64,000 nucleotides of DNA from the NCBI RefSeq assembly GCF_003790525.1, contig NZ_CP033635.1; one strand, 5' to 3'. The stretch comes from Escherichia coli. GTDB taxonomy: Bacteria > Pseudomonadota > Gammaproteobacteria > Enterobacterales > Enterobacteriaceae. This document shows positions 12,001-18,000 of the stretch, piece after piece. How positions within the stretch are numbered: position 1 is the stretch's first letter; each line of letters starts with the position of its first letter. Position numbers: made by a program.

Positions 12001-15000
12001 CGGTTCGCAGTACGCGCCCGGACGAATGCCTTTCACACCGCAGGCACGACCGACCATTTTCTGCGCCAGCGAGAAGCCGCGATCGCTCTCAGCGACATCT
12101 TTCGCCTGACGGAACACATCGCTGTGCGGCAGACCAAGTGCTTCACGCGCTTTGGTGGTCAGGCCACGCCCGATAATCAGCGGAATACGACCACCGGCAC
12201 GCACTTCATCAATCAGCACGTCGGTTTTCAGTTCGAAGGTCGCCAGCAGTTCGCCGGTTTCGTGGTTACGCACTTCACCTTTGTACGGGTAAACGTCAAT
12301 TACGTCACCCATGTTCAGGTTAGAGACGTCCACTTCAATTGGCAGTGCACCCGCATCTTCCATCGTGTTAAAGAAGATGGGTGCAATTTTACCGCCGAGG
12401 CACAAACCACCGCCGCGTTTGTTCGGCACATGTGGAATATCATCGCCCATAAACCACAGAACGGAGTTCGTGGCGGATTTACGCGATGAACCCGTACCCA
12501 CAACGTCACCGACGTACGCCAGCGGGAAACCTTTCTGTTGCAGAGCTTCAATCTGTTTGATCGGACCAACAACACCAGGCTGATCTGGCTCAATACCTTC
12601 ACGGGCGTTTTTCAGCATCGCCAGCGCGTGCAGTGGGATATCCGGGCGTGACCACGCATCCGGTGCCGGAGAAAGGTCATCGGTGTTGGTTTCGCCTGTG
12701 ACTTTGAAGACGGTAACGGTCAGTTTTTCAGCCAGTGCCGGGCGATTCAGGAACCATTCGGCATCTGCCCAGGACTGCATTACCTGCTTCGCATATTCGT
12801 TACCTGCTTTGGCTTTCTCTTCTACGTCATAGAAGTTATCGAACATCAGCAGCGTGTGAGAAAGTGCTTTGGCAGCGATCGGTGCCAGTTTGGCATCATC
12901 CAGCGCATCGATCAGCGGATGAATGTTGTAACCACCCTGCATGGTGCCCAGCAGTTCGATGGCTTTTTCCGGAGTCAGCAGTGGGGATTTGGCTTCGCCT
13001 TTCGCGACAGCAGCCAGGAAGCCTGCTTTGACATAGGCGGCTTCATCGACGCCAGGGGGAACACGGTTGGTTAACAGATCTAACAGGAATTCTTCTTCGC
13101 CCGCGGGCGGGTTTTTCAGCAGCTCTACAAGTGCGGCCATTTGGTTTGCATCCAGGGGTTTGGGCGCAATCCCCTCAGCGGCACGCTCAGCTACGTGCTT
13201 ACGGTATTCTTCTAGCACGACGGTTCTCCTCGCTCTCATTGTCATAGTGCGGCAGGCGATTCTCTTCACGCTCCTGTGAGACAGCAGTTTGTAGGGTAAA
13301 TGCCCAGTACCGCAACGGGCAGAATAGCAGGATTTTGACGATGTGTTAATCTGTTTACAAAAAAGCAACATAAAAAAGTGGCTGAATCGTTAAGGATAGT
13401 CTAGAGAATGTTTCCCTCCGTAAAAACTTCGTTAATTCGCATGGTGATAATCACCTTTCTCAACGAATCCCAAGATTAGTCAAAATTTAAACTACGGCCT
13501 CTTTATACTCGGATTCACAGCACCTGCGGGTGGCAGTTCGCCGACCATTGCGATTTCCTTGAGATCCGAATTATGAAAATGACTTTGCCGTTTAAACCCC
13601 ATGTGCTGGCGCTAATTTGCAGTGCCGGGCTTTGTGCCGCCTCTGCCGGGCTATATATAAAAAGCCGCACAGTGGAAGCGCCTGTGGAATCGCAATCGAC
13701 ACAACAGACTGCGCCTGACATCTCCGCAGTTACGCTTCCTGCAACGGTTTCCGCGCCTCCCGTAACGCCTGCCGTCGTCAAATCTACATTCAGCACTGCA
13801 CAAATAGATCAATGGGTTGCGCCTGTCGCGCTGTACCCCGACTCTCTGCTTTCACAAGTGTTAATGGCATCAACCTATCCGGCAAACGTTGCGCAAGCAG
13901 TGCAATGGTCGCACGATAATCCACTTAAACAAGGCGATGCTGCTATTCAGGCGGTATCTGACCAGCCCTGGGACGCCAGCGTCAAATCACTGGTGGCCTT
14001 TCCACAGTTGATGGCATTGATGGGCGAAAACCCGCAATGGGTGCAAAACCTGGGCGATGCTTTTCTGGCGCAGCCGCAGGACGTGATGGACTCGGTACAA
14101 CGATTGCGGCAACTGGCGCAACAAACCGGTTCGCTAAAGTCATCAACTGAACAAAAGATCATCACGACAACGAAAAAAGTCGTACCGGTAAATCAGCCCG
14201 CCAACGCCCCTGTTACACAATCAAATACCGTTTCTACGTCCAGCCCCGTCGTCGCAGAACCTGCACCGACCGTAATAACCATTGAGCCAGCCAATCCGGA
14301 TGTGGTTTATATTCCGAACTACAACCCAAACGTGGTTTACGGCAGTTGGGCCAATACCGCTTATCCGCCAGTTTATCTGCCGCCGCCAGCCGGAGAACCG
14401 TTTGTTGACAGCTTTGTGCGCGGATTCGGCTATAGCATGGGCGTTGCTACCACATACGCACTATTCAGCAGCATCGACTGGGACGACGACGATCATGACC
14501 ATCATCATCATGACGATGATGATTATCATCACCACGATGGCGGTCATCGTGACGGTAATGACTGGCAACACAACGGCGACAACATCAATATCGACGTCAA
14601 CAATTTCAACCGTATCACTGGTGAGCATCTTACTGATAAGAATATGGCATGGCGGCACAATCCAAACTACCGTGATGGTGTGCCCTATCATGATCAGGAT
14701 ATGGCAAAGCGGTTTCACCAAACCGATGTCAACGGCGGCATGAGCGCCACGCAGTTACCTGCTCTATCGCGCGACAGTCAGCGTCAGGCAGCAGCAAGTC
14801 AGTTTCAGCAACGAACACACACTGCGCCAGTCATTACGCGAGATACTCAACGTCAGGCTGCGGCACAGCGATTTAATGAAGCGGAACATTATGGGAGCTA
14901 TGACGACTTCCGCGAGTTCAGCCGTCGCCAACCACTGACCCAGCAACAAAAGGACGCTGCTCGTCAGCGTTATCAGTCGGCCTCGCCTGAGCAGCGCCAG

Positions 15001-18000
15001 GCAGTCCGCGAGAAAATGCAGACTAACCCGCAGAACCAGCAGCGAAGAGAGGTAGCGCGTGAGCGTATTCAGTCTGCAACTCCCGAACAGCGCCAGGTGT
15101 TTAAGGAAAAAGTACAGCAGCGCCCACTGAACCAACAGCAACGTGATAACGCCCGCCAGCGTATACAATCGGCATCACCTGAACAACGTCAGGTTTTTCG
15201 GGAGAAAGTTCAGGAGAGCCGCCCACAACGTCTAAACGACAGTAACCATACTGTCAGGCTGAATAACGAGCAACGGTCAGCAGTACGCGAACGTCTCTCT
15301 GAGCGCGGAGCAAGGCGACTGGAAAGGTAAATTACAGACGTAAAAAAAGCGGCGTGGCTAGCCGCTTTTTTAATTGCCGGATGTTCCGGCAAACGAAAAA
15401 TTACTTCTTCTTCGCTTTCGGGTTCGGCAGGTCGGTAATGCTACCTTCGAACACTTCTGCCGCCAGGCCCACAGACTCGTGCAGAGTCGGGTGCGCGTGG
15501 ATGGTCAGTGCGATGTCTTCAGCATCACAACCCATTTCGATTGCCAGACCGATTTCACCCAGCAGCTCGCCGCCGTTAGTACCGACAATCGCACCACCGA
15601 TCACACGGTGAGATTCTTTGTCGAAAATCAGCTTGGTCATACCATCTGCGCAGTCAGAAGCGATAGCTCGACCAGAAGCAGCCCACGGGAAGGTGGCGGT
15701 TTCGTAGCTGATGCCTTTCTCTTTCGCTTCTTTCTCAGTCAGACCCACCCATGCAACTTCTGGTTCGGTATAGGCGATAGACGGGATAACTTTCGGATCG
15801 AAGTAGTGTTTCTTACCGGCAATAACTTCAGCGGCAACATGACCTTCGTGAACACCTTTGTGTGCCAGCATCGGCTGACCGACGATATCGCCGATAGCAA
15901 AGATGTGCGGTACGTTGGTACGCAGCTGTTTGTCAACGCGGATGAAACCACGGTCGTCCACTTCCACGCCAGCTTTGCCTGCGTCGAGGTTTTTACCGTT
16001 CGGCACACGACCAATCGCTACCAGCACGGCGTCGTAACGCTGCGGTTCAGCGGGTGCTTTTTTGCCTTCCATCGTCACATAAATACCGTCTTCTTTCGCT
16101 TCAACGGCGGTAACTTTGGTTTCCAGCATCAGGTTGAATTTCTTGCTGATACGCTTGGTGAAGACTTTAACGATGTCTTTATCAGCTGCCGGGATGACCT
16201 GGTCGAACATTTCAACCACGTCAATCTGTGAACCCAGCGCGTGGTATACGGTGCCCATTTCCAGACCGATGATACCGCCACCCATTACCAGCAGGCGTTC
16301 TGGTACTTCTTTCAGTTCCAGCGCGTCAGTGGAGTCCCAGATACGCGGATCTTCATGCGGAATAAACGGCAGTTGGATCGGGCGAGAACCCGCTGCAATG
16401 ATCGCGTTGTCGAAGTTGATCACGGTTTTGCCGTTCTCACCTTCAACTTCCAGGGTGTTAGCCCCGGTAAATTTACCCAGACCGTTGACCACTTTGACTT
16501 TGCGGCCTTTCGCCATACCAGCCAGACCACCGGTCAGCTGATTGATCACTTTCTCTTTCCAGGTACGAATCTTGTCGATATCGGTTTTCGGTTCGCCGAA
16601 GACGATACCGTGTTCAGCCAGCGCTTTGGCTTCTTCGATAACTTTTGCTACGTGCAGCAGTGCTTTAGAAGGGATACAGCCGACGTTCAGGCAAACACCG
16701 CCAAGGGTGTTGTAACGTTCTACGATTACGGTTTCCAGACCTAAATCAGCGCAACGGAAGGCAGCGGAGTAACCTGCGGGGCCTGCCCCAAGTACCACGA
16801 CCTGAGTTTTGATTTCAGTACTCATCATGACCTCTATATATTTATCTCCGGCGGGTCTGACGTTTTTTTTATGACGCCCATTATCCACCGGGTCGTTCTA
16901 TCCGTCGGTATTTTACAAAATTGTTAACAATTTTTAAACAACAAACGGCAACCGATTTGTCTATTCGCTAATAACCTCAATACATTCATGAGATTACCAG
17001 AAAAAAGCCGGCCGTTGGGCCGGCTCTTTTACTTACATCACCAGACGGCGAATGTCAGACAGCGTGTTGTTAATGATGGTAATGAAACGGGCACCATCAG
17101 CACCGTCGATCACGCGGTGGTCGAAGGAGAGAGAAATCGGCAGCATCAGACGCGGCACGAACTCTTTACCATTCCACACCGGCTCCATCGCGGACTTGGA
17201 AACGCCGAGGATAGCCACTTCCGGCGCGTTCACAATCGGCGCGAAGTGGGTAGTACCCAGGCCGCCGATGCTGGAGATGGTGAAGCAACCGCCCTGCATT
17301 TCGCCCGCAGTCAGCTTACCGTCACGCGCTTTCTTAGAAATAGTCATCAGCTCGCGAGACAGCTCGATGATGCCTTTCTTGTTGACGTCTTTGAATACCG
17401 GAACAACCAGACCGTTCGGGGTATCCACCGCCACACCGATGTTGATGTATTTCTTCAGGGTCAGACGCTGACCGTCTTCCGACAGCGAACTGTTGAAGCG
17501 AGGCATCTGCTCCAGTGCCGCAGCAACGGCTTTCATGATGAAGACAACTGGGGTTATCTTCACATCCAGCTTACGTTTCGCCGCTTCTTCGTTCTGCTGT
17601 TTACGGAACGCTTCCAGCTCGGTGATATCGGTTTTGTCGAAGTGAGTAACATGCGGGATCATCACCCAGTTACGGCTCAGGTTCGCACCAGAGATTTTCT
17701 GGATACGGCCCAGTTCCACTTCTTCGATTTCACCAAACTTGCTGAAGTCCACCTTCGGCCACGGCAGCATGCCCGGGATACCGCCGCCAGTCGCCGCCGG
17801 AGCCGCTTCTGCACGTTTGATAGCTTCTTTCACGTAAGCCTGAACGTCTTCGCGCAGGATACGACCTTTACGGCCAGTGCCCTTCACTTTCGCCAGGTTA
17901 ACGCCAAACTCGCGTGCCAGACGGCGGATCAGCGGAGTCGCGTGAACGTAAGCGTCATTTTCAGCAAATTCAGATTTGCCTTCCGCTTTCGCAGCCGGAG

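What the first reader, a model, noticed from the sequence alone, without database searches (positions are those of the whole stretch)
14890..15200. Three tandem ~25-aa repeats near the YacH C-terminus
The C-terminal part of YacH repeats the unit ARQR(Y/I)QSA(S/T)PEQRQ(A/V)(V/F)(R/K)EK(M/V)Q three times (SASPEQRQAVREKMQ, SATPEQRQVFKEKVQ, SASPEQRQVFREKVQ), preceded by two QRQAAA-containing units. Repeat number may vary between strains; function is unknown.
Basis: seen in the sequence. Interest (0 to 1): 0.2.

Follow-up and report, generated by a model that had tools for sequence, protein, structure and literature searches.

The report
Variable helical repeats in YacH tail
The tail of the uncharacterised exported E. 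coli protein YacH really does contain three tandem copies of a 32-residue two-helix unit, strains carry three, four or five copies, and the unit resembles the repeats of small periplasmic DUF3106 proteins; this is a tidy but modest finding.

Summary
The window is E. coli SMS-3-5. yacH (13573-15330, +, 585 aa) ends in three tandem units at 14935-15222.

The units are old. They are 64-70% identical in DNA, synonymous sites are saturated (pS 0.69-0.80) and pN is only 0.16-0.27, so the protein sequence is under purifying selection.

Copy number does vary. In an even sample of 60 of 5,425 E. coli genomes, about half carry 3 units and half carry 4. Rare alleles carry 5. Two different in-register deletions give 3-unit alleles.

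Each unit is two related half-units, and AlphaFold2 predicts each as a short helix. The 32-aa unit is confined to Escherichia; other Enterobacteriaceae carry roughly 19-aa repeats instead.

Profile comparison links the tail to DUF3106 repeats (hhalign 96-98.7%). DUF3106 proteins are small and carry N-terminal signal-like sequences. The two whose gene context I looked up lie next to ECF sigma genes. However, Pfam's DUF3106 threshold is not met, and similarity to Spy, CpxP and ZraP is limited to the motif and is not significant.

Function remains inferred. My best reading is a multivalent helical binding arm in the periplasm. Interest is low to moderate.

The parts
13573..15330 (+). yacH coding sequence (585 aa plus stop), encoding a DUF3300 protein
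   Evidence: ORF list. The region is 100% identical to NC_010498.1, where it is annotated yacH. Pfam DUF3300 matches aa 75-333 at E 2.5e-78.
13573..13665 (+). N-terminal signal-like segment (aa 1-31: MKMTLPFKPHVLALICSAGLCAASAGLYIKS)
   Evidence: Read from the sequence: a basic start, a hydrophobic core and an A-S-A motif. AlphaFold2 predicts a helix at aa 9-29. Export is inferred, not tested.
13795..14571 (+). DUF3300 domain (aa 75-333)
   Evidence: Pfam PF11737, 263 bits. pLDDT is mostly above 90. Foldseek finds no solved structural relative; the best E-value is 0.97.
14473..14577 (+). His/Asp-rich tract (aa 301-335), variable in length between strains
   Evidence: Sequence IDWDDDDHDHHHHDDDDYHHHDGGHRDGNDWQHNG. 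pLDDT is below 50 at aa 318-332. Different lengths are seen across alleles.
14758..14826 (+). First 23-aa 'RDSQRQAAA' unit (aa 396-418)
   Evidence: Self-comparison at offset 23 scores 50. Sequences shown. Predicted helix aa 400-415.
14827..14895 (+). Second 23-aa 'RDTQRQAAA' unit (aa 419-441)
   Evidence: Predicted helix aa 423-437.
14935..15030 (+). 32-aa unit 1 (aa 455-486, LTQQQKDAARQRYQSASPEQRQAVREKMQTNP)
   Evidence: Predicted helices aa 457-469 and 472-484. Half-unit types a-x.
15031..15126 (+). 32-aa unit 2 (aa 487-518, QNQQRREVARERIQSATPEQRQVFKEKVQQRP)
   Evidence: Predicted helices aa 486-501 and 504-515. Half-unit types b-y.
15127..15222 (+). 32-aa unit 3 (aa 519-550, LNQQQRDNARQRIQSASPEQRQVFREKVQESR)
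   Evidence: Predicted helices aa 518-533 and 536-548. Half-unit types c-z.
15259..15306 (+). Degenerate terminal half-unit LNNEQRSAVRERLSER (aa 563-578)
   Evidence: Self-match to the SPEQRQAVREKMQ half-unit at offset 93, score 35. Predicted helix aa 565-575. A related motif is present in other genera.
15342..15371 (.). Hairpin flanked by an A-run and a T-run between the convergent genes yacH and lpdA; probable bidirectional terminator
   Evidence: Read directly from the sequence AAAAAAAGCGGCGTGGCTAGCCGCTTTTTT. The consensus scan did not call it.

Best explanation
**What it is.** The region is an array of three 32-residue units in the basic, Gln/Arg-rich C-terminal tail of YacH, a DUF3300 protein that is probably exported.

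**Unit anatomy.** Each unit is two related half-units of about 16 residues: P-L/Q-N/T-Q-Q-(Q)-R-x-x-A-R-x-R-I-Q, and S-A-S/T-P-E-Q-R-Q-x-F-R-E-K-V-Q. Each half-unit is predicted to form one short helix. Each helix starts after a Pro-containing cap and carries a narrow hydrophobic stripe (A/I/A in the first, V-F/V in the second).

**Relatives.** At the profile level the half-units match the tandem (L/M)(T/S)PEQR motifs of DUF3106. DUF3106 proteins are small and carry N-terminal signal-like sequences. The two whose gene context I looked up lie beside ECF sigma factor genes. Their motif looks like the LTXXQ motif of CpxP, Spy and ZraP.

**How the array evolves.** Purifying selection keeps the unit sequence. 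The array changes length by in-register unequal recombination or slippage of whole 96-nt periods, giving 3, 4 or 5 units in E. coli.

**Most likely mechanism (inferred).** The array is a multivalent helical binding arm in the periplasm. It would contact partner or non-native envelope proteins, as LTXXQ-type proteins do. The number of binding units, and therefore reach and avidity, would differ between strains.

**Shown:** the repeat, its period, the half-unit structure, selection, copy-number variation, and the profile similarity to DUF3106.
**Inferred:** export, the helical-hairpin fold, and any binding function.
For: - **Repeat and statistics:**
- **Half-unit structure:** autocorrelation at offset 15 has z = 4.5. 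In the alignment to canonical DUF3106, both half-unit types align to separate DUF3106 motifs.
- **Helices:** AlphaFold2 with a 117-sequence alignment predicts two helices per unit, with pLDDT 67-90. The same helices appear in a model of the tail alone.
- **Selection:** between the window's own units, pN is 0.16-0.27 and pS is 0.69-0.80, which is saturated. Nine of 32 positions are invariant across 19 units from five Escherichia lineages.
- **Copy number:** alleles of 585, 617 and 648 aa carry 3, 4 and 5 units. In a spread sample of 60 genomes, about 30 have 3 units and about 29 have 4.
- **Recent duplication in K-12:** the K-12 array shows a 96-nt period, 2.3 copies and 92% matches.
- **Two distinct 3-unit layouts:** a-x|b-y|c-z and a-x|b-x|b-z, so length changed more than once.
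- **DUF3106 link:** after E. coli fragments, the profile search hits are almost all PF11304 proteins. hhalign gives 98.7% (E 4.6e-16) and 96.0% (E 4.3e-9). Twenty column shuffles reach at best E 7.6e-4.
- **Gene context of relatives:** an ECF sigma, a 114-aa protein and DUF3106 lie in a row in Xanthomonas. A second TPEQR-repeat protein lies beside an ECF sigma gene.
- **Literature:** yacH is CpxR-regulated, and its deletion alters protamine survival (PMC9600279).
Against: - The Pfam DUF3106 model scores only 16.2 bits on this protein, below the 24.3-bit cut-off.
- The Pfam scan at E up to 10 returns no LTXXQ or Metal_resist hit.
- hhalign against E. coli Spy, ZraP and CpxP gives only 0.2-7.5% probability.
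- The Foldseek match to Spy has E 9.4.
- The tail-alone model has pTM 0.28, so no confident tertiary arrangement is predicted.
- The YacH alignment has low diversity (Neff 1.4) and both partners are repeats. One short motif matched three times therefore drives the hhalign score, and convergence on a helix-capping S/T-P-E-Q box is possible.
- Set A4, used, was assembled from hits to the YacH profile itself.
- The 32-aa unit is restricted to Escherichia, and 3 to 5 copies are all tolerated. This weakens the case for a precise function.
- No experiment addresses the tail.
Confidence: 0.5

Rival explanations
1. The tail is an electrostatic tether. Its net positive charge, not a specific motif, is what matters. 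It would bind anionic envelope material (lipid head groups, LPS, peptidoglycan) or the protein's own acidic His/Asp tract. The resemblance to DUF3106 would then be convergent.
For: - The C-terminal 200 aa hold 39 K+R against 23 D+E, and each unit has a net charge of +3 to +4.
- Distant DUF3300 proteins generally end in basic, low-complexity R/G/Q/S tails finishing in GGGRRR or HRR, without the TPEQR motif: 0 of 105 representatives carry it.
- The acidic His/Asp tract (15 D+E, 10 H) also varies in length.
- Deleting yacH changes survival on the polycation protamine (PMC9600279).
Against: - Charge alone would not hold 9 of 32 positions invariant, including P-E-Q-R-Q.
- Charge alone would not keep pN low while synonymous sites saturate.
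- The profile match to DUF3106 far exceeds composition-matched shuffles.
Confidence: 0.2
2. The tail is a nearly neutral, fast-evolving spacer. The repeats are a by-product of replication slippage or unequal crossing-over in a low-complexity tail, and copy number has no functional consequence.
For: - The repeat type and period differ between genera: 32 aa in Escherichia, about 19 aa elsewhere, and one unit in Salmonella.
- Alleles with 3, 4 and 5 units coexist at high frequency.
- Other indels are tolerated, including a 45-aa duplication and a 10-aa deletion.
- yacH as a whole is far more divergent among E. coli strains than lpdA.
- The tertiary arrangement of the tail is not confidently predicted.
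Against: - The units of this strain are ancient (saturated pS) yet conserved in protein sequence (pN 0.16-0.27).
- Every length change seen in the array, except one rare allele with a 10-aa deletion (P0001), is an exact multiple of one 32-aa period and keeps the half-unit order.
Confidence: 0.2
3. The variation is driven by diversifying selection on an exposed protein, for example evasion of immunity, phage or colicin, with repeat number acting as an antigenic or receptor variable.
For: yacH is mosaic and unusually divergent, at 77-99% identity per 150 nt, whereas neighbouring lpdA is 98.5-98.9% identical. Length polymorphism occurs at several sites in the gene.
Against: - There is no evidence of surface exposure.
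- Within the repeat, pN is much lower than pS.
- The most divergent stretch is the Pro/Thr/Val-rich linker at aa 200-250, not the repeat.
- There are no short slippage-prone tracts of the kind found in phase-variable genes.
Confidence: 0.1

Closest known systems
DUF3106 (Pfam PF11304): small proteins with N-terminal signal-like sequences and tandem (L/M)(T/S)PEQR motifs
   Same: - They share a repeated S/T-P-E-Q-R motif followed by a basic helix.
- hhalign gives 96.0-98.7% probability over 83-89 columns, with all three YacH SPEQRQ motifs and the first half-units in register with DUF3106 motifs.
- They dominate the non-E. coli hits of the profile search.
   Different: - YacH scores below Pfam's cut-off (16.2 against 24.3 bits).
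- The YacH period is 32 aa, made of two half-units, rather than about 19-24 aa.
- Ala replaces the Leu/Met before S/T-P, and the conserved Trp of DUF3106 is absent.
- The repeats are fused to a DUF3300 domain rather than standing alone.
- The gene lies between acnB and lpdA, not beside an ECF sigma gene.
LTXXQ-motif proteins CpxP, Spy and ZraP (Pfam PF07813 / PF13801)
   Same: - The local hhalign alignments fall exactly on their LTXXQ motifs: CpxP RLLTPEQQAVLNEKHQQR, Spy YNILTPEQKKQFN and ZraP APLTSEQQTA.
- All are helical proteins. CpxP, Spy and ZraP are periplasmic by established knowledge; for YacH this location is inferred.
- yacH is reported as CpxR-regulated (PMC9600279). That spy and cpxP are Cpx-regulated is from my own knowledge.
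- DUF3106 members show sub-threshold Metal_resist and LTXXQ hits.
   Different: - None of the comparisons is significant: hhalign probability is 0.2-7.5%, the Pfam scan at E up to 10 finds nothing, and Foldseek to Spy gives E 9.4.
- YacH has many short tandem units rather than one long helical-hairpin cradle.
In-frame tandem-repeat length polymorphisms in bacterial envelope proteins (protein-coding VNTRs)
   Same: Whole units are gained and lost in register between strains. The K-12 allele shows near-identical adjacent 96-nt copies, which points to a recent duplication.
   Different: - Most units here are old and diverged in DNA (64-70%), so the locus is not a classic hypermutable VNTR in this strain.
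- It is not the published 96-bp MLVA locus ms11: those primers are absent from the window, and the forward primer is also absent from the K-12 yacH locus.
DUF3300 (Pfam PF11737) family tails
   Same: YacH is a clear DUF3300 member. Family members generally carry a basic low-complexity C-terminal tail, and some have their own short tandem repeats, for example five VDRDAARQKAQN motifs in tandem in P0176.
   Different: The SPEQRQ-containing 32-aa unit occurs only in Escherichia. None of 105 distant representatives has an [ST]PEQ[RKQ] motif in its tail. In the two distant members looked up, DUF3300 is paired with a DUF2950 gene, which is not present beside yacH here.

Membership tests
Protein tandem repeat with strain-variable copy number | Adjacent copies with similarity beyond chance | tested here: met
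   Three copies with a period of 32 aa. The best 15-aa self-match scores 67 against 30.8 +/- 3.7 in shuffles. Autocorrelation z is 12.6.
Protein tandem repeat with strain-variable copy number | Whole units gained or lost in frame between strains | tested here: met
   Alleles carry 3, 4 or 5 units. A sample of 60 genomes splits about 30 to 29 between 3 and 4 units. Two distinct 3-unit layouts exist.
DUF3300 (PF11737) | Score above Pfam's gathering threshold | tested here: met
   263.1 bits against a cut-off of 25, over aa 75-333. The repeats lie outside this domain.
DUF3106 (PF11304) | Score above Pfam's gathering threshold (24.3 bits) | tested here: not met
   16.2 bits (E 0.015) for the window tail, and 10.9 bits for the K-12 tail.
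DUF3106 (PF11304) | Profile-profile similarity to bona fide members | tested here: met
   hhalign 98.7% with E 4.6e-16 against 24 members. hhalign 96.0% with E 4.3e-9 against 6 canonical members; the two of these scanned here score about 90 bits on PF11304. Column shuffles reach at best E 7.6e-4. Caveats: both partners are repeats, and the YacH alignment has low diversity.
DUF3106 (PF11304) | Small stand-alone protein with an N-terminal signal-like sequence, encoded beside an ECF sigma factor gene (context seen in the two cases looked up) | tested here: not met
   In YacH the repeats are the tail of a 585-aa DUF3300 protein encoded between acnB and lpdA. Compare the Xanthomonas layout of ECF sigma, a 114-aa protein and DUF3106 and the context of P0288.
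LTXXQ / Spy-CpxP-ZraP (PF07813, PF13801) | Significant sequence or profile match | tested here: not met
   The Pfam scan at E up to 10 returns no hit. hhalign against CpxP gives 7.5% and 2.0%, against Spy 0.5% and against ZraP 0.2%. A profile search of PDB sequences finds none of them.
LTXXQ / Spy-CpxP-ZraP (PF07813, PF13801) | L-T-x-x-Q motif at the start of a helix | tested here: inconclusive
   The second half-unit has A-S/T-P-E-Q, with Leu replaced by Ala. The first half-unit has L-T/N-Q-Q-Q. Both begin predicted helices.
LTXXQ / Spy-CpxP-ZraP (PF07813, PF13801) | Spy-like helical cradle fold | tested here: inconclusive
   The tail model has pTM 0.28. Spy (5wo2_A) is one of only two Foldseek matches, but with E 9.4 and TM 0.26/0.38.
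LTXXQ / Spy-CpxP-ZraP (PF07813, PF13801) | Chaperone or signalling-modulator activity in the periplasm | not testable with these tools
   Only indirect evidence exists: yacH is reported as CpxR-regulated, and its deletion affects protamine survival (PMC9600279).
MLVA locus ms11 (96-bp unit, E. coli/Shigella typing) | Published primers flank the array | tested here: not met
   Neither primer matches the 64-kb window, and the forward primer does not match the K-12 yacH locus, at up to 3 mismatches.

The most novel reading that the evidence does not exclude
YacH is a previously unrecognised fusion of a DUF3300 domain with a DUF3106/LTXXQ-type array. The tail would act like CpxP, Spy or ZraP, as a periplasmic client-binding or stress-signalling module under Cpx control. 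E. coli lineages would then differ in its valency (3, 4 or 5 units), giving natural variation in an envelope-stress accessory factor.
Probability: 0.15. Interest if true: 0.45.

Novelty: new member of a known kind. Interest (0 to 1): 0.25.

Why it matters
YacH is one of the remaining E. coli K-12 proteins with no known function, and DUF3300 is a very large family: 9,562 cluster representatives match at E up to 0.001.

Three things are now known about the tail:
- It is a conserved two-helix repeat.
- It is related at the profile level to DUF3106.
- Natural alleles carry 3, 4 or 5 units.

Together these give a concrete, testable handle. Natural length variants can be compared, the tail can be deleted, and binding partners can be sought. 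The finding also hints that DUF3106-type motifs and LTXXQ proteins are related.

It does not change any established picture. In-frame repeat polymorphism in envelope proteins is commonplace.

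Tried and rejected
- **DNA-level tandem repeat in the window.** Tandem Repeats Finder reports nothing. 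The repeat is visible only in the protein here, although K-12 shows a 96-nt array.
- **Membership of the LTXXQ / Spy-CpxP-ZraP family.** I rejected this as a membership claim. Only a motif-level resemblance remains.
- **A solved structure for YacH.** The PDB sequence search returns only His-tag artefacts against the His/Asp tract. Foldseek on the full model finds nothing with E below 0.97.
- **NCBIfam.** No family matches.
- **CpxR box in the window.** No GTAAA-N4-6-GTAAA match. The promoter scan is uninformative.
- **MLVA locus ms11, which also has a 96-bp unit.** The primers are absent, so it is a different locus.
- **Word-indexed protein search with the tail alone.** It returned only E. coli and Shigella fragments. 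The profile version was needed.
- **An ancient 'RDxARxR' motif shared by all DUF3300 tails.** Only 6 of 105 representatives have it, so I rejected it as a general feature.
- **Literature.** Searches for yacH, DUF3300, and yacH with 'tandem repeat' found no description of the repeat. Many hits were author names such as Yachida or Yachandra.

Full report
**Where we are.** The window matches E. coli SMS-3-5 (NC_010498.1) at 100% identity. The finding lies in the ORF 13573..15330 (+), 585 aa, between acnB (10621..13371, -) and lpdA (15401..16888, -). RefSeq calls this gene yacH, 'DUF3300 domain-containing protein'. Pfam finds only DUF3300, at aa 75-333 (E 2.5e-78). The repeats lie outside that domain.

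**Checking the observation.** A self-comparison of the protein gives its strongest diagonals at offsets 32 and 64. These join RERIQSATPEQRQVF to RQRIQSASPEQRQVF and ARQRYQSASPEQRQA to ARQRIQSASPEQRQV.
- In register, the units are aa 455-486, 487-518 and 519-550, which is nt 14935-15030, 15031-15126 and 15127-15222.
- The best 15-residue self-match scores 67. In 500 shuffles of the C-terminal 200 residues the mean is 30.8 +/- 3.7 and the maximum is 48.
- Autocorrelation has z = 12.6 at offset 32 and z = 8.4 at offset 64.
- A degenerate half-unit, LNNEQRSAVRERLSER, closes the protein at aa 563-578.

The period is 32 aa rather than about 25 aa, and the true limits are 14935-15222.

**Age and selection.**
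- Tandem Repeats Finder sees nothing in the window.
- The three units are only 64-70% identical in DNA, and about half of the codons for identical residues differ.
- Nei-Gojobori counts between the units give pS of 0.69-0.80, which is saturated, and pN of 0.16-0.27.

The units are old duplicates whose protein sequence has been preserved. Across 19 units from E. coli, cryptic clades, E. albertii and a divergent Escherichia allele, 9 of 32 positions are invariant: Q4, Q5, A10, R13 and P-E-Q-R-Q.

**Copy number between strains.**
- K-12 and O157:H7 alleles are 617 aa with four units.
- SMS-3-5, a B2 strain (MS20645) and AR_0089 have three units.
- The divergent strain AST85 has three units of 34 aa.
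- Among the 120 closest protein clusters, lengths group at 585-587 (3 units), 610-620 (4 units) and 648 (5 units). There are also odd alleles: 662 aa with a 45-aa duplication upstream of the array, and 634 aa with a 10-aa deletion inside it.

I then used a query with conserved flanks and an even sample of 60 of the 5,425 matching genomes.
- 24 genomes span the same length as the window, to within 12 nt.
- 27 genomes are exactly 96 nt longer.
- Of the remaining nine, I inspected representatives. H63 and H97 have three units plus an insertion of about 171 bp in the yacH-lpdA spacer. H98 and H99 are assumed to be the same from their identical match pattern. H80 has three units. H85 has four, and H86 is assumed to. 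AST85 (H100) has three 34-aa units. One genome (H78) was not inspected.

Overall this gives roughly 30 genomes with three units and 29 with four.

**How the array changes.** In K-12, Tandem Repeats Finder detects a 96-nt period with 2.3 copies at 92% identity, which points to a recent duplication. The 5-unit allele was typed from its protein sequence.

| Allele | Layout | Units |
|---|---|---|
| K-12, O157, E. whittamii | a-x / b-x / b-y / c-z | 4 |
| SMS-3-5, AR_0089 | a-x / b-y / c-z | 3 |
| B2 (MS20645) | a-x / b-x / b-z | 3 |
| 5-unit allele (P0006) | a-x / b-x / b-x / b-y / c-z | 5 |

The two 3-unit layouts cannot come from one event. Apart from one rare allele with a 10-aa deletion (P0001), every change in the array is a whole period in register. 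That is the signature of unequal recombination or slippage between units.

**Anatomy of a unit.**
- Autocorrelation has a secondary peak at offset 15 (z = 4.5), with its echo at offset 47. Each unit is therefore two related halves: QQQRDNARQRIQ and PEQRQVFREKVQ.
- Prolines alternate at spacings of 18 and 14 residues.
- AlphaFold2 on a 117-sequence alignment gives mean pLDDT 74.8 and pTM 0.60. It predicts two helices per unit: aa 457-469 and 472-484, aa 486-501 and 504-515, and aa 518-533 and 536-548. pLDDT in these helices is 67-90.
- A model of the tail alone gives the same helices but pTM 0.28. The helices are credible, but their packing is not.
- Reading the sequence, each helix carries a narrow hydrophobic stripe (A/I/A and V-F/V) among charged and Gln residues. 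This fits short packed hairpins.
- The C-terminal 200 residues hold 39 K+R against 23 D+E.

**Other species.** A scan of species-representative genomes found 29 loci.
- The 32-aa SASPEQRQ unit occurs only in Escherichia (E. coli, cryptic clades, E. albertii, E. whittamii).
- Kluyvera, Raoultella, Citrobacter and Atlantibacter have two or three units of about 19 aa (NPTAQQQQRRENAKSHLQ), followed by a single TPEQ-type motif.
- One MAG has three to four 19-aa STPEQRQARRENVQQRVS units.
- Salmonella has essentially one unit.
- DUF3300 as a whole is very large, with 9,562 representatives at E up to 0.001. Distant members end in basic R/G/Q/S low-complexity tails without any [ST]PEQ motif.

The tail is therefore a lineage-specific elaboration of a generally basic tail.

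**What the unit is related to.**
- Pfam on the tail alone gives only sub-threshold hits, the best being DUF3106 at E 0.015 and 16.2 bits against a cut-off of 24.3.
- A profile search with eight Escherichia tails (alignment A3) returns E. coli fragments first. After those, almost all hits are small (130-200 aa) proteins carrying PF11304 (DUF3106) or PF06518. Whole-database E-values start at about 1e-4, and several hits are labelled 'Spy/CpxP family protein refolding chaperone' by JGI.
- These proteins have N-terminal signal-like sequences and tandem (L/M/A)(T/S)PEQR motifs, for example FQNMSPEQRQAFRDKRRERFQKMSPEQRQAFRERR.
- hhalign of the YacH tails against 24 of them gives 98.7% probability with E 4.6e-16.
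- hhalign against six canonical Xanthomonas/Lysobacter-type members gives 96.0% with E 4.3e-9 over 89 columns. The two of these scanned here score about 90 bits on PF11304. Both YacH half-unit types align to successive DUF3106 motifs.
- Twenty column shuffles of the YacH alignment reach at best E 7.6e-4, and usually 0.1-0.6. Composition alone does not explain the match.

Three caveats apply. The YacH alignment is shallow (Neff 1.4). Both partners are repeats of one short motif. The first comparison set was assembled from hits to the YacH profile.

**The LTXXQ lead.**
- hhalign against E. coli CpxP, Spy and ZraP aligns the YacH motif exactly onto their LTXXQ motifs, but with probabilities of only 0.2-7.5%.
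- The Pfam scan at E up to 10 finds no LTXXQ or Metal_resist match.
- A profile search of PDB sequences finds none of the three.
- Foldseek with the tail model lists Spy (5wo2_A) as one of only two matches, at E 9.4.
- DUF3106 members themselves show sub-threshold Metal_resist hits (25.9 bits against a 29.2 cut-off) and LTXXQ hits.

I therefore treat 'LTXXQ-like' as a resemblance, not a membership.

**Context of the relatives.**
- In Xanthomonas, DUF3106 follows an ECF sigma gene and a 114-aa ORF on the same strand.
- The best non-Escherichia hit, P0288, lies immediately upstream of an ECF sigma gene.
- In E. coli K-12, cpxP lies beside cpxRA and zraP beside zraSR.
- yacH is reported as CpxR-regulated. 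Its deletion improves survival on protamine, and its transcription falls on exposure to protamine or cecropin A (PMC9600279).

None of this tests the tail directly.

**Best explanation and rivals.** My best reading is a multivalent helical binding arm of DUF3106/LTXXQ type on a protein that is probably periplasmic, with valency that varies between strains. The descriptive part is well supported and the function is inferred, so overall confidence is 0.5. The rivals are:
- an electrostatic tether, in which the motif resemblance is convergent (0.2);
- a near-neutral spacer (0.2), which is hard to square with saturated pS alongside low pN and with in-register changes;
- diversifying selection on an exposed protein (0.1).

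**What is known and what is new.** Full-text searches for yacH, DUF3300, and yacH with 'tandem repeat' found no description of this repeat. The published 96-bp MLVA locus ms11 is a different locus. The finding is a new instance of a familiar kind: an in-frame repeat polymorphism in an envelope protein. It adds a plausible family link that gives YacH a testable hypothesis.

Noticed in passing
window 14473-14577 (YacH aa 301-335): There is a His/Asp-rich tract (IDWDDDDHDHHHHDDDDYHHHDGGHRDGNDWQHNG) inside the DUF3300 region. Its length differs between E. coli alleles, for example a DHDHHHHD duplication in SSGNw2 and a 13-residue loss in NC22. It is predicted to be disordered. It could bind metal, but the only PDB hits are to His-tags.
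   Followed up: partly
window 13573-15330, especially about 14173-14322 (aa 200-250): yacH is unusually divergent and mosaic among E. coli strains. Identity to K-12 per 150 nt ranges from 77% to 99%, whereas neighbouring lpdA is 98.5-98.9% identical. The most divergent block is the Pro/Thr/Val-rich linker, not the repeat.
   Followed up: partly
window 15331-15400 (yacH-lpdA spacer): The spacer holds a hairpin flanked by an A-run and a T-run (15342-15371), probably a bidirectional terminator. The consensus scan missed it. In some strains, including the B2 strain MS20645, the spacer carries an extra insertion of about 171 bp. In strain PCP06238 it carries an IS200C.
   Followed up: partly
L041 465-2859; JGI contig of P0217 (no DNA held): In the two distant DUF3300 proteins looked up, the next gene encodes a DUF2950 protein, and in one case an HdeA-family gene follows. 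E. coli yacH has no such partner beside it.
   Followed up: no
L011 2501-5083 (E. coli E69, CP089930.1): The yacH match spans about 830 nt more than expected, and the ORF ends after 392 aa in unrelated sequence. This suggests an insertion that disrupts the gene upstream of the repeats.
   Followed up: no
P0131, P0140 (Shigella flexneri); P0130, P0135 (E. coli): In several complete genomes the repeat region is annotated as short, frame-shifted 'hypothetical proteins' of 82-207 aa. Either yacH is a pseudogene there (plausible for Shigella) or the assemblies contain indel errors.
   Followed up: no
L031 (record titled Chryseobacterium sp. 18061): This record encodes a YacH orthologue whose C-terminal tail closely resembles that of Citrobacter (L033), with three NPTAQQQQH units. 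The assembly is probably mislabelled or contaminated.
   Followed up: no
P0176 (DUF3300 representative, 490 aa), C-terminal tail: A distant DUF3300 protein carries its own tandem array of four to five VDRDAARQKAQN units with an 11-12 aa period. The Bordetella MAG L034 has similar NRDAARERAQSA motifs. DUF3300 tails seem to generate repeats repeatedly.
   Followed up: partly
window 14764-15168, minus strand: A 134-aa ORF with a TTG start lies antisense to the repeat region. It has no supporting evidence and is most likely a by-product of the codon composition of the repeats.
   Followed up: no
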